Origin: Candidatus Omnitrophota bacterium | GTDB taxonomy: Bacteria > Omnitrophota > Gorgyraeia > Zapsychrales > Fredricksoniimonadaceae | Assembly: GCA_028870995.1 (NCBI GenBank) | Contig: JAGWOI010000001.1 | Coordinates: forward strand, 100,782 to 164,781 | DNA length: 64,000 bases | Direction of reading: 5' to 3' | Shown: positions 29,851 through 53,444 of the stretch, piece after piece | Layout: every line of letters starts with the position of its first letter | Position numbering within the stretch: the stretch's first letter is position 1 | The notes under the pieces: generated by a model | Database searches by the model: none | Seen by the model: the letters and a program-made list of their open reading frames with translations, nothing else | Told to the model about the DNA's origin: nothing | Made by a program: the position numbers and the translations under genes

Positions 29851-30270
29851 ATGAAATCAAAATTCGAGACAGCCGAGGATTGGGTCAAGGTTTCGGTTGA
29901 TTTGAAGGTCTATCCGCTGCAGGCCGTCCATTCTTCCGGCTATGCTTTTATGGACCGGGCCCATGTCCGGCTTGAGCAGGAAAAGAAGGATACGGTGTCC
30001 GTATGGCTCAAACCCAAGGAAGTTAAAAAGGACCTGCAGGCCCTGGCGCTGGAATATTCGGACGAGCTACTTAACTACGCGCACTATTTCACCAGTCTGA
30101 AGGCCAATGCCGAGAATATGAAGCTTTTATTGCAAAGGGCCCTCTTTTCAGCCGCCCCGTCGATCGTTAAAGAGGCTGAAGAAAAAGAAATCGAGAACTT
30201 GATCAAGGAACTCGAAGCGGAAGAAAAGCAAAGTTCTTCTAAATCAAAGTCTCCCAAGGCTGAAAAATAA
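29851..30270 (+). CDS. Small acidic protein with Lys/Glu-rich tail; first gene of the rSAM locus (possible maturase accessory/chaperone; HxsD-like position)
   Basis: 139 aa. It lies immediately upstream of the HxsB-like radical SAM gene with a 12-nt gap. Confidence 0.3.
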   Translation: MKSKFETAEDWVKVSVDLKVYPLQAVHSSGYAFMDRAHVRLEQEKKDTVSVWLKPKEVKKDLQALALEYSDELLNYAHYFTSLKANAENMKLLLQRALFSAAPSIVKEAEEKEIENLIKELEAEEKQSSSKSKSPKAEK

Positions 30271-30282
30271 TCATTTGCCGCC

Positions 30283-31668
30283 ATGGCCTCGACCTCGTCC
30301 ATCCTTCCTTTTAATTCAGAAAAAATTGATAATAGGTATTTGGTGACCAATATAATGGGTTGCTGGGATGCCTTGGATGAAGCGGAATTCCGCCAGCTTA
30401 ACAGCCTGCGCGTTCCCGAAGGCAGCGGTCTGTATAACCGCCTTTTGGAAAAAGGGTTGATTTTGGACGGAAACAACATCAACCGCATCATCAGCGAGTA
30501 CAGGCGTCTTAATACCAATTTATTCAACGATACCAGCCTGCATATTGCCGTTGTCACCAAACGCTGCAATCTGCGCTGTAATTATTGCCATGCCGAAGGC
30601 GGGGCGGCCAATGACGATATGTCCATAGAGACGGCCACCCGCGTCCTGCAGTACCTTTTTGATGTGCGCAATAACAATGTGACCCTTGAATTCCAGGGTG
30701 GGGAGCCGCTTTTAAACTGGCCGGTGGTCAAGTTCCTCACCGAACACGCCCGCAAGTTCAATACCCTGGGCAAGAATTTGAGCATAGTACTCGTGACCAA
30801 TATGCTGCTTTTAGATGATGAAAAAATACGCTTTTTGGCCGAACATGACGTCGATGTGTGCACCTCCATGGACGGTCCGGCGGAGATCCATGACCAAAGC
30901 CGCAAGGATGTCGGGGGGCGCGGGTCGCATGCCCAATTGATGGAAAAAATCGAACATTACACCAGCCGGACCGGCCGGAAGGTCCATATGCTGCCCACCA
31001 TCACCAGGCATTCGCTGGCACATCCGGAGAGGATCATCGACGAATACCTGCGCCTGGGGCAGGGGGAGATCGCCTTAAGGCCGGTCAACAAGATCGGCTA
31101 TGCCCGGCACCATTGGGACGAGATCGGTTATACGGCCCGGGAATTCAACGGCTTTTATACCAGGGCGATGGCGTATATCATGAAACTCAACACCTCCGGC
31201 ACCTATATCAGCGAGCGCATCGCCCGGACCATCCTGATCAAGGTCCTGCTCAAAGAAGATCCTTATTATGTGAACATGATGAATCCCAGCGGCGACGGCC
31301 GGGCCGTGATGACCTATGGCGTCGACGGCGGATGCTACCCGACCGATGAGGCCAGGATGCTGGGCGATGAGATGTTCCGTTTAGGCAGCTTTGTAAATGA
31401 GAGCTATGACAACATGCTTAATAAGGAAAATCTGCTTTTTTTGTTGAGTGCCGGATGCTCGGACTTATGGAACTACCGTTCGGCCTTCAGCCCCTGGATG
31501 GGGGTCGACCCTGTGGTCAATTATGCCATGGAAAAGAATATTATTCCCAAAGGCGACTCACGGCTTCAGCAGGTGCTGACGCACCAATTCCGGACGGTTT
31601 TTTCGTACCTGTTGGGTGATAAAAAGTATGCCGAGGCCTTTCAACGCTGGATGCAGCCTGCGGCTTAA
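30283..31668 (+). CDS. Radical SAM peptide-maturase-like enzyme (HxsB-like architecture)
   Basis: 'VTKRCNLRCNYCHAEGG' CxxxCxxC. 461 aa with an N-terminal extension and a C-terminal auxiliary Cys region ('DGGCYPTDE...AGCSDLW'). Confidence 0.8.
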   Translation: MASTSSILPFNSEKIDNRYLVTNIMGCWDALDEAEFRQLNSLRVPEGSGLYNRLLEKGLILDGNNINRIISEYRRLNTNLFNDTSLHIAVVTKRCNLRCNYCHAEGGAANDDMSIETATRVLQYLFDVRNNNVTLEFQGGEPLLNWPVVKFLTEHARKFNTLGKNLSIVLVTNMLLLDDEKIRFLAEHDVDVCTSMDGPAEIHDQSRKDVGGRGSHAQLMEKIEHYTSRTGRKVHMLPTITRHSLAHPERIIDEYLRLGQGEIALRPVNKIGYARHHWDEIGYTAREFNGFYTRAMAYIMKLNTSGTYISERIARTILIKVLLKEDPYYVNMMNPSGDGRAVMTYGVDGGCYPTDEARMLGDEMFRLGSFVNESYDNMLNKENLLFLLSAGCSDLWNYRSAFSPWMGVDPVVNYAMEKNIIPKGDSRLQQVLTHQFRTVFSYLLGDKKYAEAFQRWMQPAA

Positions 31669-31677
31669 GGAGTGCTG

Positions 31678-31944
31678 ATGAAAAAAACGACTAAAAAAAG
31701 CAAGATCATTCAAAAGACAACGCCCTTGGTCAAATCGCTGGGGGAACTGATAAAGGATGAGGATGGCTTTGTCAGCAAGGAGACCATTTTAAAGGTCGGG
31801 CTGTCGACGGTTGCGGCTTTGGGGGTGGTGGGTGCGATGACCGACATCTCGTCGGGGCAGAATACGGCCACGCATACCAACACGCTGTCGACAACCAAGA
31901 ATTGCATTAACCACACCAACGTAACGACGCACACATCTTATTAA
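31678..31944 (+). CDS. Candidate RiPP precursor peptide (Lys-rich leader; Thr/Ser/Asn-rich core with H-T-N / H-T-N / H-T-S repeats and one Cys)
   Basis: SD AAGGAG lies 5 nt upstream of the ATG at 31678. The core is '...ATHTNTLSTTKNCINHTNVTTHTSY'. It sits immediately downstream of the radical SAM gene. Confidence 0.4.
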   Translation: MKKTTKKSKIIQKTTPLVKSLGELIKDEDGFVSKETILKVGLSTVAALGVVGAMTDISSGQNTATHTNTLSTTKNCINHTNVTTHTSY

Positions 31945-31969
31945 CGGGCATTCTCTTCCTTGCTCGCCA

Positions 31970-33175
31970 ATGGCCAGTAGCCTTTCTCCCAAGTTAGGTA
32001 TTTATTTCTCCCATTATGAATGTTTTGGTCATACGGCCCGCGTCATGGCCATGGCCGAGGTTTTCAAGAGAAGATATCTTCAGGGAAAGATTTTCTTTAT
32101 CCAGGCCGGTCTCGGCCAGCCCAGGTCCAGGATAGGACAATGGGGAAAGGTTTATCCGCTGCCCGGCGCCTTCATGAACCGCCGGAGTTTCAAGGCCGCT
32201 AACTTGCCGTTTGATGTAGACAAAAGAGCTCGACTTTGCGAAGCGATCGTAGCCAGGGAAAAACCAGGCCTCTTGATCTCGGAATACTTCCCTCTCGGCC
32301 ATGGAGAATGCCGCCACGAGCTGCTGACCGCTTTAGTGAAAGCATCCGCTCAAGGAGCCCTGTGGGCCGCGGCGGGGTATCCCTTATTGACGGGGAAGTC
32401 CCTATGGCGTAAGAAAGTCCTTGCGCTCTACCAGCATCTTTTTATTTTTTCTTCTGCCTTGGAAAGGGAATTTATTGCCGGCCTTTTGTCAGGACAAGAG
32501 AAGCGGGAGTATTTGGATTTCTTCGAGCAAAATGCCTCTAAAATCCTTTTTGCCGGATATTTGCTGCCCCGGCAGGAGGTGGTTGAGGATGATGAAGGTG
32601 TTAACCGTGTTGGGCCGCCCGTTGCCAAAGGGGCTTGCCGGGTGGCTGTTTTGAGGGGAGGGGGCGTCTGTTACCCGAAGCTCATTGCGCAAGCCATCCG
32701 GGCCAGCGATCTGCTGGGACAGGAGTACCATTTTACGGTGGTGGCAGGGCCCTCAACGACAGCGGCAGAATGGCGTTTATTCAAAACCATGCAGGGCAAA
32801 AAGAAGATCAAGAATTTGATTTTGCTGGGATCATTGGGAGGGTACGAAAAATTGATCAAAGAAAGCGATGTGTGCGTGTCGACCGCAGGCTATCATACAG
32901 GGGCGATGCTGCTTAAACACCGCAAGAAGGCCGTTCTGGTGCCTTTTGAAGGTTATGGTGCCAAGCGCCATTATGAACAGCCGGCCCGGGCGGCTTTGCT
33001 TAGAGAGATATTGGGAGCGGAGATCCTTTCAATAAAGACGATGACGGCCGCGAAGCTCAGACAGGCCATTCAGGATGCCGCAGGCCGTCCCGCTGTCAAA
33101 CGCCGCATTCCTGAAGCATGGTTCACGGGCGCGGATGTTTTGGACAAGGCCTTAAGAGTGTTTTGGGAACGTTAA
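31970..33175 (+). CDS. GT-B fold glycosyltransferase (GT1/GT28-like), paralog A
   Basis: N-terminal 'LGIYFSHYECFGHTARVMAMAEV' Gly/His-containing loop typical of MurG/UGT-type GT-B enzymes. Paralogous to 49943..51184. Confidence 0.55.
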   Translation: MASSLSPKLGIYFSHYECFGHTARVMAMAEVFKRRYLQGKIFFIQAGLGQPRSRIGQWGKVYPLPGAFMNRRSFKAANLPFDVDKRARLCEAIVAREKPGLLISEYFPLGHGECRHELLTALVKASAQGALWAAAGYPLLTGKSLWRKKVLALYQHLFIFSSALEREFIAGLLSGQEKREYLDFFEQNASKILFAGYLLPRQEVVEDDEGVNRVGPPVAKGACRVAVLRGGGVCYPKLIAQAIRASDLLGQEYHFTVVAGPSTTAAEWRLFKTMQGKKKIKNLILLGSLGGYEKLIKESDVCVSTAGYHTGAMLLKHRKKAVLVPFEGYGAKRHYEQPARAALLREILGAEILSIKTMTAAKLRQAIQDAAGRPAVKRRIPEAWFTGADVLDKALRVFWER

Positions 33176-33187
33176 CAGGGGCATTTT

Positions 33188-34204
33188 ATGATCATCGATG
33201 AGCGTGAGTACCGGCGGCGATATTTACTGCGGATCAAGGGGGCGCGCGACAACAAAGTTTATATCGGCCCTGAGACTGTCTCTTTGGATCTCATTAATTT
33301 ATGCAATCTCAGCTGCCGGTTCTGTTCGGCCCAGCATGCCCCCAATAACCCGTTTCGTTCTGAAAAAGCCCGTCTTTTTGAATGGGATGATTTCCTTGGT
33401 GTCGTGGGTGATTGCGTTGATTTGAAGGTCAACCAGCTCTATCTCGTAGGGCCGGGGGAGCCGACGCTGCACCCCAGGTTCCGGGACATGATGCAGCATC
33501 TGGAGAGGCAGCCGATAACCACAAAATTATTTACCAATGCGACCTTTTCGCCGGAATATTGCGCCGATGTGCTCAAAGGCGACCATGTGATCATCAACCT
33601 TAATGCCATTGACCGGCAGGGCTATGTTGATTTAAAAGGCAAGGATCTTTTTGACCGCGTGGTGGCCAATATCGAGCGTCTTGTTTCCTTGCGCAATACC
33701 GTCAAGCCGGAATTTGGGATTAAAATCGCCTATATACTTAATGCCGTCACGCTCCCGCAGAAAGAGAAAATGCTGGACCTGGCTTCCGGGTTGGGGGTCG
33801 ATATGGTTAATGTCATAGAAATGCACGGGAATGCCTATAATCAAGATATTGCCTTGCCGCAGGGATCGCCCGGGGCCAAGAAAACAAGGACCCCTCCGGC
33901 TTGCTTAAATGGATGGTTTTATATGGCCGTAAAATTGGATGACAGCGCCTCCATTTGCTGTCAAATCCATAAGATGCCTTTTGGAGATTTTGACAAGGGG
34001 CACTTTAAGCGCTTCTGGCTTTCGCAGCGCCTGATGAATTTGCGTCTGATGGGAAAATACGGTCAACTCCAGAAGATGTTCAAGGCCTGTAAGACCTGCC
34101 CTGATTATGAAGAGAATATAGAGCGCGCTCAAAGGGCGGGTTCAGGAAGGCCGGCTGCATTCAAGGGATCAGGGGGCCATAGTCCCAAGGTTGAAACTGT
34201 TTAA
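33188..34204 (+). CDS. Radical SAM / SPASM-domain protein (paralog family member 1)
   Basis: 'LINLCNLSCRFCSAQ' and 'GPGEPTLHP'. C-terminal 'CCQIHKMPFGD...CKTCPDY'. Confidence 0.8.
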   Translation: MIIDEREYRRRYLLRIKGARDNKVYIGPETVSLDLINLCNLSCRFCSAQHAPNNPFRSEKARLFEWDDFLGVVGDCVDLKVNQLYLVGPGEPTLHPRFRDMMQHLERQPITTKLFTNATFSPEYCADVLKGDHVIINLNAIDRQGYVDLKGKDLFDRVVANIERLVSLRNTVKPEFGIKIAYILNAVTLPQKEKMLDLASGLGVDMVNVIEMHGNAYNQDIALPQGSPGAKKTRTPPACLNGWFYMAVKLDDSASICCQIHKMPFGDFDKGHFKRFWLSQRLMNLRLMGKYGQLQKMFKACKTCPDYEENIERAQRAGSGRPAAFKGSGGHSPKVETV

Positions 34205-35161
34205 AAAGCCGTGATAGGAGTAACATCCGGGGCAGTCGCCTTTAAGACCACAGGCCACCTGTTTTTTGTGTTTTTCTGCAAATAAGATAGAAACGCCGTC
34301 TTGGAGAGTCCCTATTTCTTCCATGTTCAGGCAGCAAAAGACCTTCTGCTCTGAGGTTATAAACAGGCATTTGAGGGGGGTTTGGCATGATTTGATAGGG
34401 AAATTATCATGTGAAACCAGATCAATAAGCAGGGAAAAGGGAGCAAAATCAATGATCGGGGCGGTCTTTTTCTTTTCCTCAATAAAGATCTTTTCCAGCT
34501 GCTGCTTGATGGATTCCCGTATGCTTGATTGGAGCAGGGGACTGAATTCCAGGGTGCTGGCGAGGCGATGGTAGTAATTCCCCACATTCTGCTCGGAAAT
34601 TTTAGGACTGAACATCAAATTATTTTCCAAGCAGAAAAGGTAGAAGGGATAGACCTCATCATAGTTGAATTTGCTGATGGTAAACTTAACACGAAGCTTT
34701 AAACTGTCGCCAAAAAGGATTTTAATTCCCTTGATCGTTTCAAATGTTTTTTTAAAGGCATTGGACCTTCCGCGTATTTCGGAATGTTTCTCATTTATTC
34801 CATCCAGGCTTATCCCCACATGGCATCCTTCAAGGAATTCACGGTTTTCTTTAAGGGTTTGCAGTATTTTTTTGGTGGCATACCCGTTGGTGTTGATATC
34901 GAAGCACCGGATAGATCCCTTTTTCCTTAAGAGATACATCAACTGGAGGATTTTTCCTATCTGCGGATGAAGGAAAGGTTCGCCTCCCGTAATGGAGATT
35001 GATCCTATTTTATATTGAGTTGCGACGGATTTGATGAACTGATGGATGCCGGTTAAGGGGATGACCCGGTGCTTTTCCTGCCATATATTGCAGACTTTAC
35101 ATCGCAGGTTGCATTGATTTGTAATTTCGATGGTGATTTCCTGGATGAAATTCTCATGCAT
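34169..35161 (-). CDS. Radical SAM / SPASM-domain protein (paralog family member 2)
   Basis: 'ITNQCNLRCKVCNIW' and 'TGGEPFLHP'. C-terminal 'FCCLNMEEIGTL...CGLKGDCPGCYSY'. Its 3' end overlaps the convergent gene by 36 bp. Confidence 0.8.
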   Translation of the reverse strand: MHENFIQEITIEITNQCNLRCKVCNIWQEKHRVIPLTGIHQFIKSVATQYKIGSISITGGEPFLHPQIGKILQLMYLLRKKGSIRCFDINTNGYATKKILQTLKENREFLEGCHVGISLDGINEKHSEIRGRSNAFKKTFETIKGIKILFGDSLKLRVKFTISKFNYDEVYPFYLFCLENNLMFSPKISEQNVGNYYHRLASTLEFSPLLQSSIRESIKQQLEKIFIEEKKKTAPIIDFAPFSLLIDLVSHDNFPIKSCQTPLKCLFITSEQKVFCCLNMEEIGTLQDGVSILFAEKHKKQVACGLKGDCPGCYSYHGFLNSFNLGTMAP

Positions 35162-37984: not shown

Positions 37985-37993
37985 GCCCAACCC

Positions 37994-47121: not shown

Positions 47122-48270
47122 ATGGCGCCTTTTAACATGCCAGAAAGTGTTTATCAGGCCTATAAAAGCGATTTCCAAAACGGGGTGGTGACGCTGGGAA
47201 ACCTCTGTAGCGCGAAATGCACTTTTTGCTCCCAATATTGGAACCCTTCGGGGGTCATTCAAAACCTGGAAAGATTGTTGACCTGGGAAGAGGTGAAGCA
47301 TTTTATAGACGAATACCTGGTCAAAGTGGGTGAAAATCCGCATGTTTCGCCTTCCATAGGTTCAGCCCTTCATGCCAATAGCGGAGAGTTTTTCCTTCAT
47401 CCGAATGCGGCCCGGATCTTGGAATATTTGAAGACCAACAATAAGCTGGAAGATAACCAGATGGTCATTTCCAACGGCATGAATTTTAGAAAAGAGCACA
47501 TTGAGCTGCTTAAAGGCCTGAAGATCGGTATTCAATTGTCCTTGTTTGCCACGGATGTCTCGGCCAGGATGGATGTCATGAAAGGCTCATTATCCCAGAA
47601 TCAAAGGGCGATAGACACCCTGGATCTCTTTGAAAGCCAGGGGATAGAGTACGGGGTGACCATTGTCCCTTATAAAAAATATTTGCGTAACGGGGTCATG
47701 GAAAAGATTTTCAGCGACTTGAAAGGCCATCACGTCAAGGAATTTGTCATGCATAAACCCGGATACACTAAATTGACCCCCGCGAACATCGTGGAAGAGT
47801 TGAATATCCCTGACCAGGAACTGCTGGATTTTGGTGCCATGATATGGGACAAATATCAGATGAACGTGCGGATCGAGGGGGTGCTTCCCGTGGAGAAGAA
47901 CGTCTCCGAATTCCTGCGCCTCAGCAAGTCTTTAGAGCCGTTGCGGAATCTGGGGAATAAATTCAAGCTCTTCTTGTGTTCCCCCAAGGCCCACAGCCTG
48001 ATCAAGCTTGTCTTAAGGAAAATGGAGATGCAGGACTATGAGCTGAAGCCCGTTGAATCACATGTATTCGGAGGGAGCGTCGATTGTGCGGGCCTTTTGA
48101 CCGTCGAAGATTATGTTATAGCCATTAATGAATATTTGACCGGCGGCGGCAAAAAGGTCGATTTTATCGTCATGTCAAAAAGAAGTTTCGACATCAATAA
48201 GGAAGACCTTAAAATGGTGTCCGTCTATAAGTTGGAGGAAATTTTCAATGCCAAGGTGCTGTTAGTTTAA
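47122..48270 (+). CDS. Radical SAM protein (non-SPASM; DUF512-like C-terminal region)
   Basis: 'VTLGNLCSAKCTFCSQ' CxxxCxxC. 382 aa. Confidence 0.7.
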   Translation: MAPFNMPESVYQAYKSDFQNGVVTLGNLCSAKCTFCSQYWNPSGVIQNLERLLTWEEVKHFIDEYLVKVGENPHVSPSIGSALHANSGEFFLHPNAARILEYLKTNNKLEDNQMVISNGMNFRKEHIELLKGLKIGIQLSLFATDVSARMDVMKGSLSQNQRAIDTLDLFESQGIEYGVTIVPYKKYLRNGVMEKIFSDLKGHHVKEFVMHKPGYTKLTPANIVEELNIPDQELLDFGAMIWDKYQMNVRIEGVLPVEKNVSEFLRLSKSLEPLRNLGNKFKLFLCSPKAHSLIKLVLRKMEMQDYELKPVESHVFGGSVDCAGLLTVEDYVIAINEYLTGGGKKVDFIVMSKRSFDINKEDLKMVSVYKLEEIFNAKVLLV

Positions 48271-48275
48271 AACTT

Positions 48276-49937
48276 ATGAAAACCCCGATGCGTTTAAAAA
48301 TAATAAAATCGCCCCGTTTCAAAGGGGAGACGGATTATCTCCCGCCGCTGGCCATTTCCCAAATATATTCATTCCTGAAAAATAAGGGTTTTGAAATCTC
48401 CCAGGAGGATTTAAACCAGAGGGAAGTCCCCTCCAAAAAAGATATATTCGGGTCTACCTACAAAAAGAGGCTGAAAAACATATTTTCCAGGGAGTTTTCC
48501 GCTTATTTAACGACGGGTAAGGATGATCATTATGAAGCGATCGCCTCCCAATATTTGTCATCCGGGGAAATGGACTCGATCGATATCCTGCTGGTTTCGA
48601 TCTGCTATTCCGATTTTTGTTCTTCCATGGCGGCCCTGTTGATAGCCAGGTATTTTAAGTCCAAGAATAGAAATAAGCTGGTCATCATGGGCGGGGAGTC
48701 CATAGAGAAGTCTTATATTTATGAGGGTTTTGAAAAATACAACACCTTGGGCATTGTGGATTATTATATCCTCGGCCCCGGCGAAGAATCCTTGCTGATG
48801 CTCCTGAAAAGAATACAAGGGGAGGCCCTCGACCCTAAAAAGATCCCGGGCCTGTGTTACAGGCAGGACGGCCAGGTCTTTAAAAATGACCCCATCCGGG
48901 ACGCAGCCCTCGTGCCCCCTGACTTTACGGGCTTATCGTTGAAGAAATACAGCTGGGACCAGTCGGAGATTTTTCACAGCATGTCTCCCAAACTTTTCCC
49001 CCGGCGCGAGATCCTGGTGCTTCCATTCCGGATGATCGACGGCTGTCCTTACCGCTGCGCGTTTTGCGCGTCCCCGGACATGTCGCAGGCCAGGACCTCC
49101 TCGGTCGATCCGCAGGAGGCGGTCAGCGTGTTGAAAAGATTGACGGCCGAACACAACGCCAAATATTTTATGTTCCTGCATGACACCCTTAATTTTTCCA
49201 AGGCCTTCATCAATCATTTTTGTGACGAGCTGATCAAGGCGGATTTGGACATACGGTGGTCGGACAGCTTAAGCCCCTTGGCGGTGGACGGCCCCGAGGT
49301 GTTGAATAAAATGTACCGGGCCGGCGCCCGCCGGGTGTTTTTCGGCCTGGAATCGGCCAGCACCAAGCTGCAGGCGTATACCGGGAAGAATGTTAATCCG
49401 GCTAGAGCGGCGCAAATCGTGAAATGGGCGCATGAAGCGGGGCTCTGGACCGGCGTTCAGGTCATCGCCGGATTTCCTCACGAGACAAAAGAAGACATAC
49501 AATCCACCGTGGATTTCATTATAGACTGCGCGCCTTATCTGGATGTTGTCAAGCTGCAGAAGTTCTATCTGCGCCGCTATACCTATATGCATTCCGATGC
49601 CAAGAAATACGGCATCACTAACATCAGGGAGTACGATGATCTGCCGGAATTGGTGGTCCGGCAAAGGGGCCAGAACAGATACCGCTTTGATGAAATCGGC
49701 GGGCTTGAGTGGAATCAGAAGGAAAAACAGATTGAACGTTCCTACCGCACATTCGACCGGCTCATCACAGAATATAGACTAAAATCGTACAGCCCCAGGG
49801 ATGAACTGAATATTCTTTTTTACCTGTATGAATGTCTGGAGGATAAAAAGAGGATCAAATCCGCATTTGACATATACCAGGCCGAACTTAAGAAAGTCAA
49901 TAAACTGAGCCTGGACCTGCAGGACCTGGATGAGTAG
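48276..49937 (+). CDS. Cobalamin-binding (class B) radical SAM protein
   Basis: N-terminal B12-binding-like domain and 'IDGCPYRCAFCASPD'. 553 aa. Confidence 0.8.
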   Translation: MKTPMRLKIIKSPRFKGETDYLPPLAISQIYSFLKNKGFEISQEDLNQREVPSKKDIFGSTYKKRLKNIFSREFSAYLTTGKDDHYEAIASQYLSSGEMDSIDILLVSICYSDFCSSMAALLIARYFKSKNRNKLVIMGGESIEKSYIYEGFEKYNTLGIVDYYILGPGEESLLMLLKRIQGEALDPKKIPGLCYRQDGQVFKNDPIRDAALVPPDFTGLSLKKYSWDQSEIFHSMSPKLFPRREILVLPFRMIDGCPYRCAFCASPDMSQARTSSVDPQEAVSVLKRLTAEHNAKYFMFLHDTLNFSKAFINHFCDELIKADLDIRWSDSLSPLAVDGPEVLNKMYRAGARRVFFGLESASTKLQAYTGKNVNPARAAQIVKWAHEAGLWTGVQVIAGFPHETKEDIQSTVDFIIDCAPYLDVVKLQKFYLRRYTYMHSDAKKYGITNIREYDDLPELVVRQRGQNRYRFDEIGGLEWNQKEKQIERSYRTFDRLITEYRLKSYSPRDELNILFYLYECLEDKKRIKSAFDIYQAELKKVNKLSLDLQDLDE

Positions 49938-49942
49938 CCTCC

Positions 49943-51184
49943 ATGAAAAGAATCATTATTTATTACTCACACAGGCAGACGCTGGGGCATCAGAGCCGTG
50001 TGGCCAACATCGTCGCAAGCCTTCATACAAACTATAAGAAAAAAGTTAAAGTTTTCCTCTTTAATGCCGGCTTGCCGGAAGAGTTCATTCAATTCCCGCC
50101 GGGGACGGTGTGCATCAACATCCCGTTCCCTTTTCACAGCAAACAGGATTTCAGGGTTGACCGCAAGAATTTCTCCCGTGGAGACGTCAGTTCCCGCTCC
50201 CAGTTTATGCTGAAACAAATTGAAAAGATAAGGCCGGATGTTTTTATCACGGAATTTTTTCCATTCGGAAGGCCGGACCTGATTGAAGAGATATTCCCTG
50301 TTTTGCGTCTTGTGCATTCCCGGGGAGCCAAAATTATAAGCAGCCTCGGGTATCCGTATATAAACCCTTTCTTTTTTAAAACGGAAAGCCGGAAAATCTA
50401 CACCTTGCTTGCCAAATTTTATGAAACCATCCTGGTCCATACGCCTGACGGGCTTGAGGAAGCTTATGCCCTGAAGTCTTTGGGGGATGCCCAAAACGAG
50501 CATCCAAAGGGCGGCTTGACTAAATCGTATACCGATGCCTTCTCCGTGGTGAAAGACAAGATCGTTCATACAGGCTATATCGTTCCCGCAGGGATAAAGA
50601 ACGTGTCCCGGCCGGTTTTGGTGAATAAGATAAAATCCCGGGAGAGGATTTTTGTTCTGGTCAGCCGGGGCGGCGGAGTTATTTATCCGAAACTTCTGAC
50701 GAGCGCCATCCAGGCCAAAAGGATTTTGGGGGACAAGTTTGTTTTTTTGATCGTGCCGGGGCCCTCTTCCACCGGCGCGGAAATGGCGCTCTTTCGTTCG
50801 TTGATCGATAAGGCCGGCCCTGAGGGGATCGAGATGCGGCCTTATGTCCCGGATCTGTTCAAATATATCCGCTTTTGCGATGTTTCTATAAGCATGTGCG
50901 GCTATAACACCTCTGCTGAATTATTATTTTTTCGCACGAAAAGCATTGTTGTGCCCTGGAGGCTCTGGGAAAATCAGGATAACTCGTACTATAATGACCA
51001 GTTGACCCGGTCCTATCTCTTAAAAGAATACCTGGGTTCCGGGGTGGTCCAATACAACTCCATTTCCGCAAAGGCGCTCGCCGACGGTGTACAAGAGCAG
51101 ATGGCCAAGGACCCGCCCAAAGAGATCCTTAAGGCATCGGATTTTGAAGGGGCTTATTTTACGGCCGCAAGGATCATGAGCTGA
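49943..51184 (+). CDS. GT-B fold glycosyltransferase (GT1/GT28-like), paralog B
   Basis: 'IIYYSHRQTLGHQSRVANIVASL' N-terminus parallels paralog A. Confidence 0.55.
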   Translation: MKRIIIYYSHRQTLGHQSRVANIVASLHTNYKKKVKVFLFNAGLPEEFIQFPPGTVCINIPFPFHSKQDFRVDRKNFSRGDVSSRSQFMLKQIEKIRPDVFITEFFPFGRPDLIEEIFPVLRLVHSRGAKIISSLGYPYINPFFFKTESRKIYTLLAKFYETILVHTPDGLEEAYALKSLGDAQNEHPKGGLTKSYTDAFSVVKDKIVHTGYIVPAGIKNVSRPVLVNKIKSRERIFVLVSRGGGVIYPKLLTSAIQAKRILGDKFVFLIVPGPSSTGAEMALFRSLIDKAGPEGIEMRPYVPDLFKYIRFCDVSISMCGYNTSAELLFFRTKSIVVPWRLWENQDNSYYNDQLTRSYLLKEYLGSGVVQYNSISAKALADGVQEQMAKDPPKEILKASDFEGAYFTAARIMS

Positions 51185-52178
51185 CGGAAGCTTTGGACAG
51201 GGCTTTTCGGGCCATCGCCGGGTCGAACAGAGGGTCCGCCGCCAACGGGGTGCCGTGGGCGCGCAAGGCCATGGAACGGCTGCCTCCCCGGCAGGTGTCA
51301 AGCACGGGGCAGCGCCGGCACAATTCCGGCAGATAGCCGGTCCCGGAGAGCTCCTTAAGGAACGGGTGTTCCCACGCCTCGCGGATGCTGCGTCCTAAAT
51401 TTGTTTCCAAGAAATAATTTGGTTTAAAGAATCCCCTGGCGCTGCGCACGAGGCGCAAGTGCCCTTCGTCCAGCCTGGCCCCCAGAAAGACCTTTTTGCC
51501 GATCTGAAGATCGCCCGCCACGCATAAGGGGGTCGGGTTGGAAACAAAAGCATTGATCCGGTCCCTGCGGATCTTCATGATCTCAAGGGCCAGCTTGCGG
51601 AAAAACAGGGGGTTCATTTCCTTTAAGGCCTCAACCGAATCGCTGATCGGACGCTGCAGAAGCCACGCCGCAGGGTTGATCTTCTTGATGAGCGGAATAA
51701 AGGGCGTCAGTGAACGCTCGGAGTCGGAAGTGATGACCGTCGCCGTCCACAGGACCGGCAAGTAGGCCTTTAAAAGAAAGATATTCTTCATTTTATCAAG
51801 GAAAGAGACCTTGGAACCGGTATAGGCGGTGTTGGCCTTCTCATCGTACCCCTGCAGCGAAACATGCGCCACATCGACGGTGGCGATAATGGTTTTCATG
51901 GCGGCAGGGCTGATGTTGTCGGCAGAGGTGTTAAGGATAATGGCCAGTTTCCTGGCTTTGGCATAGGACAAGATGGGGCGAAAATCCGGATGGAGGGTAG
52001 GTTCCCCGCCGGTGATACGGACGGCCTTTACCCCGAGACCGGCGGCCTCGTCTAGGGTGGCTTTAATATCTTTGAACGGCACGTCAGGGATCCGCGGACC
52101 GGTGCAGTAGGTGCAGACCTGCCGGCAGCGGCCGGTGATTTCAATGATGATCTCTGAGGGCAAAGATGGTCGTTTCAT
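51174..52178 (-). CDS. Radical SAM protein with C-terminal twitch/SPASM-like Cys cluster, co-transcribed downstream of the Cys-rich pilin-like gene
   Basis: 'ITGRCRQVCTYCTGP' and 'TGGEPTLHP'. C-terminal 'PLCVAGD...CRRCPVLDTCRGG'. There is a 21-nt gap to the upstream pilin-like gene. Confidence 0.75.
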   Translation of the reverse strand: MKRPSLPSEIIIEITGRCRQVCTYCTGPRIPDVPFKDIKATLDEAAGLGVKAVRITGGEPTLHPDFRPILSYAKARKLAIILNTSADNISPAAMKTIIATVDVAHVSLQGYDEKANTAYTGSKVSFLDKMKNIFLLKAYLPVLWTATVITSDSERSLTPFIPLIKKINPAAWLLQRPISDSVEALKEMNPLFFRKLALEIMKIRRDRINAFVSNPTPLCVAGDLQIGKKVFLGARLDEGHLRLVRSARGFFKPNYFLETNLGRSIREAWEHPFLKELSGTGYLPELCRRCPVLDTCRGGSRSMALRAHGTPLAADPLFDPAMARKALSKASVSS

Positions 52179-52199
52179 GGCATCAGGGCAGGGTGGCCT

Positions 52200-53444
52200 T
52201 TAACAATTATTTCCGGTGCACCCGTAGTCTATAGAGATGGAACACAGTTGGGAAGGCAGGCCTATTGCACCGCATCCTCCATTGGTGGGGGACAGGGCAG
52301 GGTTATGATAGGTGTTGGAAGCCGTGTTTCCTGCCGGGAGTGCGTACGCCGATTTAACAGAGGTGGCTGTGCTGGTAGTATTAAGGCAAATTTGAAAACT
52401 TTGATTGTTAACGGTGACCCAGCGGGAGCCGTAATTGTACCAGTGACAGCTGTCTGAAGCAAGCTTGGTGGGGTTGCTGCTGTTGGTTGACGGGTCACAG
52501 GACGGGTCAAAAGCGTCCGGCCCGTTGCAGCAGGAGGCGGCCACGTTGAAATCCAGGGAGCAGGTGGCCTGGGTGCGGTCCGGCGGATTGGGCGGTGTCA
52601 GTGTATAAGGAGGATTGCAATATAGCTCGCATTTAGAGTTGCCGCCGCAGCTGGATTGAGGGGTGTCACAGCTGGATGAACTGTCCACGTAACAATACGG
52701 TGTGTCTTGTTTCAAGCCGGCGGTGGGGACCGTATCGCAAAATGTGGCTGCATTTTGGAAAAGGACAAACCCGGTGCATTTGGGCAGAGGGCAACTGCCG
52801 TCTAGAATACAAAACTGAGAGCTGTTGGAACCGCAGGCATAGCCGTATATTTGCTGGCCGTAATAACAGGAGCTGGTTGTGCCGGTGGCTTGAGGCGGAC
52901 AGCAGGTGGTGTTTGGATTATTGTATATGGAGTTTGGATCGCTGGTGGTCGGGCAATAGCTGTGTGCGGCAGGGCCGCTGCCTGCAGGACAATAGCAAGG
53001 GCCGCTGATACCCGCAGGCAATGAAGGGCATGTGAACGCGTGGCCCTGGTTGGGCAGCGGAGCGCTTCCGCACCCCAAGGGTTGAGGCGTGTTGCAGCAG
53101 CTTTCGTCCAGGACGCAGGTTTCCGCCCCGGCGGAGCCGTTACAGCCGGGGAGATTGCAGTTAAAGTGGTATTCGCGCTGATTGGCCGCGCACAGCGAGC
53201 CGTTTTGGTTGGTCCCGCAGGACCCTGCTTCCGAGGTGCAATGGCAATTCAAAGGGATATCCGGGACGTTGTTGACGGGCGCCTGGTTGATGATTTCTTC
53301 GGCGGATTCCCTGACGCTTACGTCCCACAGCCTGAAATGCGCATTGACGGAACGAAGCACATAACTGCCCATGAATACAATCCCCAAAATCACGAGGATG
53401 GCAATTAAGATATACTCAATGATGGACTGTCCGCGTTTATGCAT
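52200..53444 (-). CDS. Cys-rich (about 37 Cys) type IV pilin-like protein with class III (prepilin) signal peptide
   Basis: N-terminus 'MHKRGQSIIEYILIAILVILGIVFMGSY' has Gly at -1, Glu at +5 and a hydrophobic helix. The remaining ~380 aa is Cys/Pro/Thr/Ser/Asn/Gly-rich low-complexity sequence ending in a Cys. Divergent from pilM. Confidence 0.6.
   Translation of the reverse strand: MHKRGQSIIEYILIAILVILGIVFMGSYVLRSVNAHFRLWDVSVRESAEEIINQAPVNNVPDIPLNCHCTSEAGSCGTNQNGSLCAANQREYHFNCNLPGCNGSAGAETCVLDESCCNTPQPLGCGSAPLPNQGHAFTCPSLPAGISGPCYCPAGSGPAAHSYCPTTSDPNSIYNNPNTTCCPPQATGTTSSCYYGQQIYGYACGSNSSQFCILDGSCPLPKCTGFVLFQNAATFCDTVPTAGLKQDTPYCYVDSSSSCDTPQSSCGGNSKCELYCNPPYTLTPPNPPDRTQATCSLDFNVAASCCNGPDAFDPSCDPSTNSSNPTKLASDSCHWYNYGSRWVTVNNQSFQICLNTTSTATSVKSAYALPAGNTASNTYHNPALSPTNGGCGAIGLPSQLCSISIDYGCTGNNC

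What the first reader, a model, noticed from the sequence alone, without database searches (positions are those of the whole stretch)
29851..53444. ~23.5-kb radical-SAM-dense maturation locus with no obvious described counterpart
Ten radical SAM genes occur in ~22 kb. Four are mutually paralogous SPASM-type enzymes and one is a twitch/SPASM-like enzyme fused into an operon with a pilin-like gene. One is HxsB-like, three are class B cobalamin-dependent and one is other. The locus also holds two paralogous GT-B glycosyltransferases, a GT2 plus GT39 pair, TPP-dependent E1 alpha/beta, a deacetylase-like gene and an A24 prepilin peptidase. Three candidate substrates are present: an 88-aa His-Thr-Asn/Ser-repeat peptide, a 10-Cys secreted protein and a ~37-Cys type IV pilin-like protein. 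SPASM radical SAM enzymes typically install thioether or C-C crosslinks on Cys-containing peptides, as in sactipeptides, ranthipeptides and anSME. Class B enzymes typically C-methylate unactivated carbons, as in proteusins or aminoglycoside sugars. The combination with pilin processing and secretion genes suggests a post-translationally hyper-modified, possibly glycosylated, secreted pilin or peptide. An alternative reading is a heavily tailored glycoconjugate pathway.
Basis: partly seen in the sequence, partly recalled or inferred. Interest (0 to 1): 0.9.

Follow-up and report, generated by a model that had tools for sequence, protein, structure and literature searches.

The report
Expanded His-Xaa-Ser peptide maturation locus
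This Omnitrophota locus is a greatly enlarged, previously unannotated relative of the His-Xaa-Ser (HXS) radical-SAM system: about twenty enzymes, ten of them radical SAM, surround one 88-residue peptide, and a prepilin-peptidase-type protease turns out to be a regular part of this branch of the system.

Summary

It does have a described counterpart. The first three genes are HxsD-like, HxsB-like and an HxsA3-like 88-aa peptide, so the core is a divergent His-Xaa-Ser (HXS) system. The canonical four-gene form was shown in 2026 to be an antiphage system.

Synteny across about 45 Omnitrophota loci defines a conserved core: HxsD, HxsB, peptide, a secreted ~10-Cys protein, a GT-B glycosyltransferase, a PqqE/SuiB-like radical SAM enzyme and an A24 peptidase. 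The B12-type enzymes, SPASM paralogs, E1 alpha/beta and GT2/GT-C pair are variable accessories.

The pilin-plus-radical-SAM pairing is not conserved. The 37-Cys Flp-like protein is a neighbour, not a core member.

New here: the peptide's N-terminal module ([DE]E[DE]-G, ten residues, G, hydrophobic helix) is shared with bona fide HxsA3 proteins. Of 34 metagenomic HxsA3 operons with enough upstream sequence, 33 encode an A24-like peptidase between hxsD and hxsC.

Most likely the locus matures, glycosylates and N-terminally processes an exported or membrane-anchored HxS/HxN-repeat peptide. The chemistry and biological role remain inferred. I rate it a new variant of a known kind.

The parts
29851..30270 (+). 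HxsD-like small protein (139 aa)
   Evidence: TIGR03976 HxsD scores 26.6 bits, below the cut-off of 50. Orthologs carry precomputed Pfam PF27806 HxsD hits. It is 70-82% identical across Omnitrophota and keeps an ELLNYAHY motif resembling LLNDYxLRE.
30283..31668 (+). HxsB-like radical SAM maturase (461 aa)
   Evidence: TIGR03978 scores 367.8 bits against a cut-off of 370. It is 29% identical over its full length to a bona fide HxsB, E 5e-69, but lacks that protein's C-terminal Cys motif. The best solved relative is CteB (5wgg), E 9e-26.
31678..31944 (+). Precursor peptide, 88 aa, HxsA3-like. It has a Lys-rich N-terminus, invariant D-E-x-G, a second invariant G 11 residues later, a hydrophobic helix, and a tail with HTN/HTN/HTS triplets, one Cys and a C-terminal Tyr.
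   Evidence: NF038309 HxsA3 scores 23.7 bits, below the cut-off of 65. There are 366 clusters at 90% identity and 348 at 50% identity. The maximum Kyte-Doolittle 19-mer hydropathy is 1.72.
31970..33175 (+). GT-B glycosyltransferase 1 (401 aa), a core member
   Evidence: Glyco_tran_28_C scores 24.5 bits. A GT-B is found in 17 of 25 long loci. It has no sequence relative among solved structures.
33188..34204 (+). SPASM radical SAM paralog (338 aa), accessory
   Evidence: Radical_SAM plus SPASM domains. Homologs at 51% and 39% identity occur in L013 and L028.
34169..35161 (-). Radical SAM enzyme (330 aa, 13 Cys), weakly HxsC-like
   Evidence: TIGR03977 HxsC scores 49 bits against a cut-off of 267.9. 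It is 27% identical over 173 aa to a bona fide HxsC, E 2e-9. It recurs in the more distant Omnitrophota loci.
35299..36012 (+). DUF2334 / polysaccharide-deacetylase-like protein (237 aa)
   Evidence: Pfam hits. Present in 11 of 25 long loci.
36009..36968 (+). TPP-dependent E1 alpha subunit (319 aa), accessory
   Evidence: E1_dh scores 235 bits. TIGR03182 scores 321 bits, below its cut-off of 394. Not found in other loci.
36965..37984 (+). E1 beta subunit (339 aa), accessory
   Evidence: Transket_pyr plus Transketolase_C domains. NF006667 scores 342.6 bits.
37994..39112 (+). SPASM radical SAM paralog (372 aa), accessory
   Evidence: Radical_SAM plus SPASM domains. Paralogous to the 338- and 363-aa enzymes.
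39141..39869 (+). Secreted all-alpha protein with 10 conserved Cys (242 aa), a core member
39870..41306 (+). PMT_2 GT-C glycosyltransferase (478 aa), accessory
   Evidence: PMT_2 scores 59.8 bits. A homolog at 33% identity, paired with a GT2, occurs in L004.
41303..42943 (-). Class B (B12-binding) radical SAM enzyme (546 aa), accessory
   Evidence: B12-binding plus Radical_SAM domains. The best solved relatives are B12-dependent radical SAM enzymes, including TokK.
42835..43638 (-). GT2, polyprenyl-phosphate sugar synthase-like (267 aa), accessory
   Evidence: Glycos_transf_2 scores 68.7 bits. AglJ-like, 85.9 bits.
43601..44692 (-). SPASM radical SAM paralog (363 aa), accessory
   Evidence: Radical_SAM plus SPASM domains. 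Paralogy shown.
44702..45973 (-). Class B radical SAM enzyme (423 aa), accessory
   Evidence: B12-binding plus Radical_SAM domains.
46155..47039 (+). A24 (GxGD) aspartyl peptidase without a methyltransferase domain (294 aa), a core member
   Evidence: PF01478 scores 30 bits against a gathering threshold of 26.5. Asp25 and Asp85 (the latter in GGDVKL) are 100% conserved in 27 orthologs. Present in 18 of 25 long Omnitrophota loci and in 33 of 34 HxsA3 operons.
47122..48270 (+). Atypical radical SAM enzyme (382 aa), accessory
   Evidence: Radical_SAM scores 37.4 bits, with a weak DUF512 hit. A 38% identical homolog occurs in L025.
48276..49937 (+). Class B-like radical SAM enzyme (553 aa), accessory
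   Evidence: Radical_SAM scores 72 bits. It matches the PhpK family and RiPP C-methyltransferase families from residue 106 onward, and is a paralog of the 546-aa enzyme.
49943..51184 (+). GT-B glycosyltransferase 2 (413 aa)
   Evidence: Glyco_tran_28_C hit. It is 28% identical to GT-B 1.
51174..52178 (-). SPASM-type radical SAM enzyme (334 aa), a core member and the anchor used for the synteny searches
   Evidence: Invariant Cys at positions 18, 22, 25, 219, 287, 290 and 296. The AF2 model has pLDDT 88. The best fold matches are PqqE, SuiB, ChlB, anSME and SkfB. There are 156 homolog clusters, those that carry a source name being Omnitrophota.
52200..53444 (-). Flp-like, 37-Cys protein (414 aa). 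A neighbour that may share a transcript with the 334-aa radical SAM gene; not a conserved core member.
   Evidence: The N-terminus is MHKRG|QSIIEY followed by a hydrophobic helix. It has no Pfam or NCBIfam family. Comparable proteins occur only in L001 and L004.

Best explanation
The locus is an expanded, divergent Omnitrophota branch of the A24-peptidase-containing, HxsA3-type His-Xaa-Ser (HXS) radical SAM maturation system.

Proposed pathway:
1. The substrate is the 88-aa peptide. It has a Lys-rich cytoplasmic N-terminus and a conserved [DE]-E-[DE]-G-x10-G module running into one hydrophobic helix. Its Thr/Ser/Asn/His-rich tail carries H-x-[STN] triplets, a single Cys and an invariant C-terminal Tyr.
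2. In the cytoplasm, the HxsB-like enzyme and HxsD-like protein install covalent modifications in the tail. The PqqE/SuiB-like 334-aa enzyme and a weakly HxsC-like 330-aa enzyme take part as well.
3. The conserved GT-B enzyme(s) glycosylate the peptide.
4. A species-variable accessory set tailors the peptide and/or its sugars. Here that set is three SPASM paralogs, three class B enzymes, an atypical radical SAM enzyme, E1 alpha/beta and DUF2334.
5. The peptide inserts into the inner membrane, N-terminus in and C-terminus out. The A24 GxGD protease removes the N-terminal leader at or near one of the two invariant glycines.
6. On the periplasmic side, the GT2 plus PMT_2 pair may add further sugar, and the conserved secreted 10-Cys protein acts as a partner.

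Shown here: gene content, family relationships, conserved synteny, the peptide architecture, and the co-occurrence of the A24 peptidase with this type of HxsA N-terminus.

Inferred: every chemical step, the cleavage site, the topology and the biological role. An envelope function is likely, possibly a phage or DNA-entry barrier as in canonical HXS.
For: HXS identity:
- HxsB scores 367.8 bits, and HxsD and HxsA3 give sub-threshold hits on three adjacent genes.
- The window HxsB aligns over its full length with a bona fide HxsB (29% identity, E 5e-69).

Conserved synteny:
- The gene order '>A24 >rSAM334 <GT-B <Cys-rich <peptide <HxsB <HxsD' recurs across Omnitrophota loci at 35-84% identity.
- Of 25 non-redundant loci of at least 18 kb, 19 have HxsB, 19 the peptide, 17 HxsD, 18 the A24 peptidase and 17 a GT-B.

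Linkage of core and accessory genes:
- Core genes sit in tightly spaced gene strings with accessory genes. The SPASM338 gene follows hxsD-hxsB-peptide-GT-B. The Cys-rich gene lies between SPASM372 and PMT_2. The A24 gene heads rSAM382-B12-GT-B.
- Related loci are equally dense in radical SAM genes but carry different sets: HemN-like, MiaB-like, HxsC4-like and B12-like. They also carry DegT aminotransferase, oxidoreductase and sulfotransferase genes.

Peptide-modifying enzyme classes:
- The 334-aa enzyme's model best matches PqqE, SuiB, ChlB, anSME and SkfB.
- The HxsB-like enzyme best matches CteB and anSME.

The A24 link:
- The peptide profile reaches HxsA3 proteins that share the same N-terminal module with identical G-to-G spacing.
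- L054 and L056 are bona fide systems: HxsD, HxsD_rel, HxsC, HxsB and HxsA3 all score above their cut-offs, and a Peptidase_A24 gene sits between them.
- 33 of 34 metagenomic HxsA3 loci with at least 5.5 kb upstream encode the A24-like protein. The order hxsD-A24-hxsC-hxsB-hxsA3 occurs in 36 loci.
- Both catalytic Asp residues are invariant in 27 Omnitrophota orthologs.

Canonical HxsA needs HxsB, HxsC and HxsD for a covalent modification in an HxS repeat and for non-canonical N-terminal processing (PMC13128918).
Against: - No curated HXS model reaches its cut-off on the window proteins (HxsB misses by 2 bits; HxsD scores 26.6 against 50; HxsA3 scores 23.7 against 65). No true HxsC is present (49 bits against 268).
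- The HxsB-like enzyme has lost the C-terminal SPASM Cys motif found in bona fide HxsB. Its chemistry may therefore differ.
- The first invariant Gly lies about 8-10 polar residues before the hydrophobic stretch and is preceded by acidic residues. The position after it can be F, Y, N, K, R or Q, and position +5 is not conserved as Glu. This is unlike known class III signals.
- Many family members also have an A-x-A-like site after the helix (AFA|AH, SFA|GH). Signal peptidase I could therefore be the releasing protease, with the A24 protein doing something else.
- Nothing shows which accessory enzymes act on the peptide and which on sugars.
- The A24 peptidase could instead serve the Flp-like protein or the neighbouring type IV pilus genes in this genome.
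- The biological role is untested. The phylum-wide, syntenic, housekeeping-like distribution differs from the patchy, island-like distribution of compact HXS systems.
Confidence: 0.6

Rival explanations
1. Pilin maturation locus. The 37-Cys Flp-like protein is the main substrate. The A24 peptidase removes its class III signal. The adjacent 334-aa SPASM enzyme and the other radical SAM enzymes cross-link or methylate it, the glycosyltransferases decorate it, and the flanking PilB/PilMNOPQ machinery assembles it.
For: - The Flp-like start G|QSIIEY plus a hydrophobic helix is the only near-canonical class III signal in the window.
- The gene lies 22 nt upstream of the 334-aa radical SAM gene on the same strand.
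- The locus lies between pilB-like and pilMNOPQ genes.
- A 925-aa, 154-Cys Flp-like protein abuts the peptide gene in L004.
Against: - Flp-like Cys-rich proteins were found within 10 kb of the core in only two lineages out of about 45 loci.
- The conserved partners of the 334-aa enzyme and of the A24 peptidase are the HXS genes and a GT-B.
- Most loci have no pil genes nearby.
- Compact HxsA3 operons carry the same A24-type gene with no pilin or pilus genes.
- The 414-aa protein has no Pfam or NCBIfam family.
Confidence: 0.12
2. Glycoconjugate pathway that merely sits next to an HXS trio. The radical SAM enzymes, E1 alpha/beta, the DUF2334 protein and the glycosyltransferases build a heavily tailored sugar or lipid-linked glycan for the envelope, independently of the peptide.
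For: - Sugar-type genes recur in these loci: GT-B, GT2 plus PMT_2, DUF2334/deacetylase-like, DegT aminotransferase, GFO/IDH/MocA oxidoreductase and sulfotransferase.
- From general knowledge, class B and SPASM/twitch radical SAM enzymes are known to tailor sugars (GenK, BtrN, DesII, AprD4). AprD4 and DesII do appear among the structural and sequence neighbours.
- The accessory block has lower GC than its flanks.
Against: - Core HXS genes are interleaved with the 'sugar' genes and sit at operon-like spacing from them in three gene strings.
- A GT-B, the 334-aa radical SAM enzyme and the A24 peptidase co-occur with HxsB, HxsD and the peptide across the phylum.
- L055 has nine extra radical SAM genes next to the HXS core, and no glycosyltransferase was annotated there.
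Confidence: 0.12
3. Peptide-derived small molecule, in the manner of PQQ or mycofactocin. The invariant C-terminal H-x-[SNA]-Y is cross-linked by the PqqE/MftC-like 334-aa enzyme. It is then excised and glycosylated or methylated to give a cofactor or metallophore.
For: - The C-terminal Tyr, and the His three residues before it, are invariant in all aligned members.
- The 334-aa enzyme's best family hits are PqqE (69.6 bits) and MftC (47.4 bits), and its best fold match is PqqE.
- From general knowledge, mycofactocin is glycosylated and its sugars methylated.
Against: - The precursor has a conserved hydrophobic helix and a positive-inside N-terminus, which fits export or membrane anchoring, not a cytoplasmic cofactor precursor.
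- The HxS repeats are conserved along the whole tail.
- Relatives are 188-277-aa HxsA3 proteins with C-terminal domains after the repeats. In canonical HXS the product is a protein effector.
- No PqqB/C/F or MftB/D/E equivalents were detected.
Confidence: 0.08

Closest known systems
Canonical HXS antiphage system (HxsD-HxsB-HxsC-HxsA; Li et al., Nat Commun 2026, PMC13128918; predicted by Haft and Basu 2011)
   Same: - An HxsD-type small protein next to an HxsB-type radical SAM enzyme and a target with His-Xaa-Ser/Asn repeats.
- The target has an N-terminal export or anchor segment and needs non-canonical N-terminal processing.
- Maturation is expected in the cytoplasm, followed by export.
   Different: - There is no true HxsC.
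- The HxsB-like enzyme lacks the C-terminal CxxC-type cluster motif.
- The target is an 88-aa peptide with no peptidoglycan-binding domain.
- An A24 peptidase, a GT-B, a second SPASM enzyme and a secreted Cys-rich protein are core members.
- Up to ten radical SAM genes are present.
- The system is syntenic across Omnitrophota loci, whereas 99.7% of canonical systems are in Pseudomonadota.
HxsA3-type HXS operons (NCBIfam NF038309 HxsA3, NF038315 HxsD_rel, TIGR03976/03977/03978), seen here in gut, rumen and other metagenomes (L053, L054, L056, L057-L136)
   Same: - The same N-terminal module of the target: [DE]E[DE]-G, ten residues, G, hydrophobic helix, then H-x-S repeats.
- An A24-like GxGD peptidase with the W..GD.K motif is encoded in the operon.
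- HxsD and HxsB are homologous.
   Different: - These are compact 5-6-gene operons with a true HxsC and an HxsD_rel protein.
- HxsA3 is 188-277 aa with C-terminal domains.
- No glycosyltransferases or extra radical SAM enzymes are present.
- Two of the examples sit in defence-island-like surroundings (Pycsar PycTM; PemK).
- The window proteins score below all the curated cut-offs.
Radical-SAM RiPP pathways with SPASM maturases (SCIFF/CteB, PqqE, SuiB, anSME-type) and class B C-methyltransferases (proteusin-type)
   Same: - A leader-plus-core precursor.
- SPASM-class maturases whose closest solved relatives are CteB, PqqE and SuiB.
- Class B radical SAM enzymes in the cluster.
   Different: - The core has one Cys, so this is not a sacti- or ranthipeptide pattern.
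- The precursor contains a hydrophobic helix.
- The candidate leader protease is an A24 aspartyl protease. That class is absent from a 2023 review of RiPP leader proteases (PMC10885120).
- Ten radical SAM genes in one cluster is, by my own judgement from general knowledge, far beyond typical clusters; I did not survey this.
Type IV prepilin / class III signal processing (PilD, TadV, FlaK/PibD)
   Same: - An A24 peptidase with both catalytic Asp residues.
- The candidate substrate has a basic N-terminus, an invariant Gly and a following hydrophobic helix.
   Different: - There is no conserved Glu at +5.
- Acidic residues precede the Gly, and a polar spacer follows it.
- No pilus genes are consistently linked.
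- The A24 protein has no methyltransferase domain and has no NCBIfam or solved-structure sequence match.

Membership tests
HXS system (canonical, TIGR03976-03979) | HxsB radical SAM maturase (TIGR03978, cut-off 370 bits) | tested here: inconclusive
   The score is 367.8 bits with full-length coverage. The protein is 29% identical to a bona fide HxsB, E 5e-69. It falls 2 bits below the cut-off.
HXS system (canonical, TIGR03976-03979) | HxsC radical SAM maturase (TIGR03977, cut-off 267.9 bits) adjacent to HxsB | tested here: not met
   The best candidate is the 330-aa enzyme, at 49 bits. It is 27% identical to a true HxsC over the radical SAM core only, and it is not adjacent to hxsB.
HXS system (canonical, TIGR03976-03979) | HxsD small protein (TIGR03976, cut-off 50 bits; LLNDYxLRE motif) | tested here: inconclusive
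   The score is 26.6 bits. Orthologs have Pfam PF27806 HxsD hits. A partial motif, ELLNYAHY, is present.
HXS system (canonical, TIGR03976-03979) | HxsA effector with a signal peptide, a peptidoglycan-binding domain and about five HxS repeats | tested here: not met
   The 88-aa peptide has H-x-[STN] triplets but no peptidoglycan-binding domain or any other domain.
HXS system (canonical, TIGR03976-03979) | Second Fe-S cluster motif in HxsB (C399/C402 in the E. coli enzyme) | tested here: not met
   There is no C-terminal CxxC. Only scattered Cys residues are conserved: C193 at 100%, C351 at 82% and C392 at 57%.
HXS system (canonical, TIGR03976-03979) | Antiphage activity by blocking DNA entry | not testable with these tools
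   PADLOC 2023 returned only generic viperin radical-SAM matches for these proteins and no HXS match. Function needs experiments.
HxsA3-type HXS operon | Target protein matching NF038309 HxsA3 (cut-off 65 bits) | tested here: not met
   The score is 23.7 bits, E 3e-5, covering model positions 5-75 of 81. The architecture and G-x10-G spacing are the same. A profile built from Omnitrophota peptides hits true HxsA3 proteins at E 1e-10 to 1e-12.
   The window gene is at 46155-47039. The peptidase is present in 18 of 25 long Omnitrophota loci and in 33 of 34 HxsA3 loci.
HxsA3-type HXS operon | HxsD_rel small protein (NF038315) | tested here: not met
   Only 13 nt separate hxsD and hxsB in the window, so there is no room for an ORF. 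ORFs of 66-89 aa occupy this position in distant Omnitrophota-type loci, but I did not scan them against NF038315.
Peptidase family A24 (type IV prepilin peptidase) | Pfam PF01478 above the gathering threshold and two catalytic Asp residues, the second in a GxGD-type motif | tested here: met
   The score is 30.0 bits against 26.5. D25 and D85 (in GGDVKL) are invariant in 27 orthologs.
Type IV pilin / class III signal substrate (the 88-aa peptide) | G at -1 directly before about 20 hydrophobic residues, Glu at +5, and linkage to pilus assembly genes | tested here: not met
   The invariant glycines exist, but +5 varies among E, D, K and A. A polar spacer follows the first Gly. Pilus genes are not consistently linked.
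Flp/Tad pilin (the 414-aa protein) | G|xxxxEY processing motif plus a hydrophobic helix, and a family HMM match | tested here: inconclusive
   The motif G|QSIIEY and the helix are present. There is no Pfam or NCBIfam hit. At 414 aa with 37 Cys it is unlike the roughly 50-60-aa Flp pilins (size from general knowledge).
Class B (cobalamin-dependent) radical SAM enzymes | N-terminal B12-binding domain plus a radical SAM core | tested here: met
   PF02310 plus PF04055 hit the 546- and 423-aa proteins. The 553-aa protein reaches this class only through similarity to class B families and through paralogy.
Sactipeptide / ranthipeptide clusters | A Cys-rich core peptide cross-linked by a SPASM maturase | tested here: not met
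   The conserved precursor has a single Cys. Family scores for PapB, SCIFF and AlbA are far below their cut-offs.

The most novel reading that the evidence does not exclude
Omnitrophota maintain, across the phylum, a housekeeping-like descendant of the HXS system. A short HxS/HxN-repeat peptide is modified by up to ten radical SAM enzymes, glycosylated, and released from its leader by a dedicated prepilin-peptidase-family (A24) protease. This would be the first case of class-III-signal-type processing in a RiPP-like or protein-maturation pathway. The product would be a new kind of membrane-anchored glycopeptide of the cell envelope, with species-specific tailoring comparable to surface-antigen variation.
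Probability: 0.3. Interest if true: 0.85.

Novelty: new variant of a known kind. Interest (0 to 1): 0.7.

Why it matters
- **Extends the HXS family.** HXS was assigned a function only in 2026, as a four-gene antiphage system found almost entirely in Pseudomonadota. This locus shows the family reaches into Omnitrophota and, in a simpler form, into archaea and gut or rumen bacteria. In Omnitrophota it has grown to about 20 genes with ten radical SAM enzymes.
- **Identifies a missing component.** An A24 aspartyl protease is a near-obligate component of the HxsA3 branch (33 of 34 operons). That gives a concrete candidate for the unexplained 'non-canonical' N-terminal processing of HxsA-type proteins. 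It would also add a new protease class to peptide-maturation pathways.
- **Opens a question in Omnitrophota biology.** These bacteria are uncultured, ultra-small and probably epibiotic or predatory. A conserved, heavily tailored envelope glycopeptide would be a new trait to look for in existing metaproteomes, for example of Ca. Velamenicoccus archaeovorus, which encodes a member of the peptide family (BU251_04190).
- **Offers enzymology targets.** The locus provides ten co-localised radical SAM enzymes with one small and obvious candidate substrate.

Tried and rejected
- **RNA genes:** the Rfam and tRNA scans of the window found nothing. In particular there is no cobalamin riboswitch upstream of the BtuF-like or TonB genes.
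- **Defence models:** PADLOC gave only generic viperin-type radical SAM hits and no HXS match.
- **A24 peptidase:** no NCBIfam family and no sequence relative among solved structures.
- **GT-B 1:** no sequence relative among solved structures.
- **Promoter and terminator scan:** counts do not differ from shuffles (34 against 25 +/- 5). Only the 11/12 promoter match at 35238-35267, upstream of the DUF2334 gene, is worth noting.
- **Pilin idea for the peptide:** I considered whether it is a mini type IV pilin assembled by the flanking pilus genes. I rejected this because Glu at +5 is not conserved, the spacer is polar, pil genes are not linked elsewhere, and the same module occurs in compact HxsA3 operons.
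- **Names and taxonomy of distant peptide relatives:** the cluster look-up returned no names.
- **Literature:** the Omnitrophota papers consulted do not mention the locus. No listed paper combines 'prepilin peptidase' with RiPP terms.

Full report
**1. What is in the window**

ORF listing and translation, together with Pfam and NCBIfam scans, give 22 genes between 29851 and 53444. By gene spacing they fall into six strings:
- 29851-34204 (+)
- 34169-35161 (-)
- 35299-41306 (+)
- 45973-41303 (-)
- 46155-51184 (+)
- 53444-51174 (-)

Ten genes carry a Radical_SAM domain above the gathering threshold:
- Three are full-length SPASM paralogs (338, 372 and 363 aa; 25-28% identity).
- Three are class B or class B-like (546, 423 and 553 aa).
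- One is HxsB-like (461 aa).
- One is a PqqE-like SPASM enzyme (334 aa).
- One is weakly HxsC-like (330 aa).
- One is atypical (382 aa).

The other genes are two GT-B paralogs (28% identity), a GT2, a PMT_2 GT-C, E1 alpha and beta, a DUF2334/deacetylase-like protein and an A24 peptidase.

None of the 27 flanking genes I scanned is a radical SAM gene. Ten of 22 against none of 27 gives a hypergeometric p of about 8e-5 (calculated by hand). The one correction is that 'four mutually paralogous SPASM enzymes' is really three.

**2. Organism and public annotation**

Homologs of the 334-aa enzyme that carry a source name are Candidatus Omnitrophota. The identical proteins belong to a 191,750-bp MAG contig with tags KGK03_00660 to KGK03_00765. 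There they are annotated only as hypothetical, radical SAM protein, prepilin peptidase, GT39 and similar. A second assembly, GCA_028865175.1, holds the right-hand end on a 10-kb contig.

**3. The core is an HXS-type system**

The first three genes hit curated His-Xaa-Ser models:
- HxsB: 367.8 bits against a cut-off of 370, full length.
- HxsD: 26.6 bits against a cut-off of 50.
- HxsA3: 23.7 bits against a cut-off of 65.

The canonical HxsD-HxsB-HxsC-HxsA system was shown in 2026 to block phage DNA entry. HxsA is a periplasmic protein with five HxS repeats. It needs HxsB, HxsC and HxsD for a +8 Da modification in an SHRSS motif and for a non-canonical N-terminal cleavage. In that study 99.7% of systems are in Pseudomonadota and more than 99.8% have exactly four genes (PMC13128918).

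The claim of 'no obvious described counterpart' is therefore wrong for the core. The window version departs from the canonical definition in several tested respects:
- There is no true HxsC.
- The HxsB-like enzyme lacks the C-terminal cluster motif.
- The target is an 88-aa peptide with no peptidoglycan-binding domain.

**4. Synteny**

Contexts came from three homologs of the 334-aa enzyme, a scan of species-representative genomes (43 loci) and a locus holding the exact 90-aa peptide of Ca. Velamenicoccus archaeovorus (BU251_04190), read from a JGI metagenome contig. I compared them by BLAST and by profile HMMs.

The recurrent arrangement is '>A24 >rSAM334 <GT-B <secreted Cys-rich protein <peptide <HxsB <HxsD'. 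Among 25 non-redundant loci of at least 18 kb:
- HxsB occurs in 19.
- The peptide occurs in 19.
- HxsD occurs in 17.
- The A24 peptidase occurs in 18.
- A GT-B occurs in 17.
- DUF2334 occurs in 11.

The loci lacking these genes hold the most distant homologs of the anchor enzyme, including archaeal ones.

The 10-Cys protein, or in more distant loci a different secreted 252-299-aa protein with 10-13 Cys, follows the peptide gene.

E1 alpha/beta, the B12-type enzymes, the 382-aa enzyme and the GT2/PMT_2 pair are not conserved. Other species carry different genes in the same place:
- HemN-like, MiaB-like, HxsC4-like and B12-like radical SAM enzymes.
- Three unknown families of about 282 aa.
- A DegT aminotransferase, a GFO/IDH/MocA-DegT fusion and a sulfotransferase.

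High radical SAM density is therefore a property of this locus type: nine such genes in L002, seven in L051 and ten in L055.

In the window the core has been pulled apart by about 17 kb of accessory genes of lower GC (0.45-0.50 against 0.52-0.57). Core genes still sit at operon-like spacing from accessory genes, which argues for one functional unit.

**5. The pilin reading**

The 414-aa, 37-Cys protein does start like an Flp prepilin (G|QSIIEY plus a hydrophobic helix). It lies just upstream of the 334-aa radical SAM gene. A motif scan of all fetched loci found comparable proteins only in L001, which is the same organism, and in L004, where a 925-aa, 154-Cys protein sits at a different position.

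The 334-aa enzyme's constant neighbours are the A24 peptidase and a GT-B. Most loci have no pilus genes nearby. I treat the Flp-like protein as a neighbour and a possible secondary A24 substrate, not as the point of the locus.

**6. The peptide**

Alignments of Omnitrophota members show the following, in order:
1. A Lys-rich N-terminus.
2. An invariant D-E-x-G.
3. A second invariant Gly 11 residues later.
4. A hydrophobic stretch (maximum Kyte-Doolittle 19-mer hydropathy 1.72).
5. A variable tail with H-x-N/H-x-S triplets. In distant members these are obvious HxS arrays such as SHPSHGSHGSY.
6. One nearly invariant Cys.
7. An invariant His and an invariant C-terminal Tyr.

In the window peptide, the 34-residue tail has 15 Ser/Thr, 5 Asn and 3 His.

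The family has 366 clusters at 90% identity, all named 'hypothetical', and 348 clusters at 50% identity.

**7. The A24 link**

Distant members of the peptide profile keep the same N-terminal module: [DE]E[DE]-G, ten residues, G, hydrophobic stretch, then HSSHSS repeats. Their contexts are decisive.

- L054 and L056 are bona fide HxsA3-type systems. Scores against cut-offs are HxsD 79 against 50, HxsD_rel 53 against 41, HxsC 307 and 294 against 268, HxsB 492 against 370, and HxsA3 108 and 110 against 65. A Peptidase_A24 gene sits between hxsD and hxsC.
- L053 has an A24-like 227-aa protein in the same position.
- L055 (31% GC) has an A24/Arc_PepC-like gene, HxsD, HxsB, a 102-aa peptide, a Cys-rich protein and nine further radical SAM genes.

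A metagenome scan with HxsA3 N-termini gave 80 loci. Of the 34 with at least 5.5 kb upstream, 33 encode the A24-like protein together with HxsC and HxsB, and all 34 have HxsD. The order hxsD-A24-hxsC-hxsB-hxsA3 occurs 36 times. In 6 further loci hxsA3 comes first.

In the Omnitrophota copies both catalytic Asp residues are invariant.

An A24 GxGD protease is thus a regular component of the HXS branch whose targets carry this N-terminal module. The window locus belongs to that branch. A 2023 review of RiPP leader proteases contains none of the terms A24, aspartyl or pilin, and the HXS paper describes only four-gene systems.

**8. Enzyme classes**

The AF2 model of the 334-aa enzyme (pLDDT 88) best matches PqqE, SuiB, ChlB, anSME, SkfB and CteB. 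These are all peptide- or protein-modifying SPASM/twitch enzymes. The protein starts directly with the radical SAM core, so it has no recognition domain of its own.

The HxsB-like enzyme's best solved relatives are CteB and anSME. It has about 85 residues before the core.

Against a bona fide HxsB it aligns end to end, but the motif PECCDCVYLPYCGTCPV is replaced by a Cys-free stretch. Across orthologs only scattered C-terminal Cys residues are conserved.

**9. Most likely mechanism**

This section is inference, except where the text says otherwise.

- The peptide is modified in the cytoplasm by the HxsB-like/HxsD-like pair and by the 334-aa and 330-aa enzymes.
- It is glycosylated by the GT-B enzyme(s), using sugars tailored by the variable accessory enzymes. 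Some accessory radical SAM enzymes probably act on the peptide itself.
- It then inserts into the membrane with its N-terminus in the cytoplasm, and the A24 protease trims it at or near G30 or G41.
- The GT2/PMT_2 pair, where present, would add sugar on the periplasmic face.
- The secreted disulfide-rich protein would act as a partner.

By analogy with canonical HXS, an envelope barrier function such as phage defence is possible. Two of the compact HxsA3 operons do sit beside Pycsar or toxin genes. The Omnitrophota version, in contrast, is syntenic across the sampled genomes and embedded among housekeeping genes. That pattern looks more like a structural trait.

**10. Caveats**

- All curated HXS scores for the window proteins are below their cut-offs.
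- The first invariant Gly is preceded by acidic residues and followed by a polar spacer. Position +5 is not conserved. This is not a known class III signal.
- Many members also carry an A-x-A-like site after the helix, so signal peptidase I may release the repeat region.
- The A24 peptidase might also serve the Flp-like protein or the pilus system in this genome.
- No accessory enzyme can be assigned to peptide or sugar.

**11. Verdict**

- The locus is a new, strongly expanded variant of a known kind, the HXS system of the HxsA3 type.
- The new and testable finding is that a prepilin-peptidase-family protease is part of that branch.

Noticed in passing
window 24970-29385: A DUF6580 protein, a TonB-dependent receptor, a Dph6-like ATP pyrophosphatase and a Peripla_BP_2 (BtuF-like) binding protein lie directly upstream of a locus with three B12-type radical SAM genes. 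This may be a cobalamin uptake unit. Rfam found no cobalamin riboswitch.
   Followed up: partly
window 18524-22911 and 53579-57590: An MshEN-only protein, two tandem PilB-like ATPases and a second MshEN-only c-di-GMP-binding protein lie upstream, and pilM-N-O-(114 aa)-Q lies downstream. The radical SAM locus therefore sits between type IV pilus gene groups. The same PilB neighbourhood is seen in L008, L010 and L021.
   Followed up: partly
window 34000-50000: The accessory block has lower GC (0.45-0.50) than the core ends and flanks (0.52-0.57). This fits a variable or acquired insertion between the core genes.
   Followed up: no
window 51174-52178 (residue 300 of the 334-aa enzyme): The fourth Cys of the CX2CX5CX3C motif is Ser in the window protein and in 10 of 23 aligned relatives, Tyr in one, and Cys in the other 12. 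One ligand of the auxiliary cluster is therefore not fixed in this family.
   Followed up: no
L004 15154-17931: A 925-aa protein with 154 Cys and an Flp-like start (G|QGALEY) consists of repeated CxxxxCGxxxCG-type modules. It lies immediately upstream of the HXS-type peptide gene in another Omnitrophota genome.
   Followed up: no
L055 1-15523: This contig (31% GC, organism unknown) carries an A24/Arc_PepC-like gene, HxsD, a 66-aa ORF, HxsB, a 102-aa peptide, a Cys-rich 299-aa protein and nine more radical SAM genes in about 12 kb. It is a second radical-SAM-dense form of the system.
   Followed up: partly
L052 3462-12976: An archaeal contig (26% GC, with SecE, Spt5, Rpb6 and ribosomal L34e, L24e and S28e genes) carries HxsD and a 574-aa HxsB-like enzyme. 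Separated from these by ribosomal protein genes are an 89-aa peptide of the same family, a Cys-rich 209-aa protein and a 697-aa radical SAM enzyme.
   Followed up: partly
L056 155-2580; L054 4274-5698: Compact HxsA3 operons sit next to a Pycsar-type PycTM gene and an M78 peptidase (L056), and next to a PemK toxin and an HTH/S24 repressor (L054). These are defence-island or mobile-element-like surroundings.
   Followed up: no
window 22927-24327 (-): A 466-aa ORF between the pilB-like genes and the DUF6580 gene has no Pfam or NCBIfam family.
   Followed up: no
window 14001-16000 and 60001-62000: GC dips locally to 0.45 and 0.41. The first region holds small ORFs and a NucS_C-like gene at 15089-15970.
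   Followed up: no
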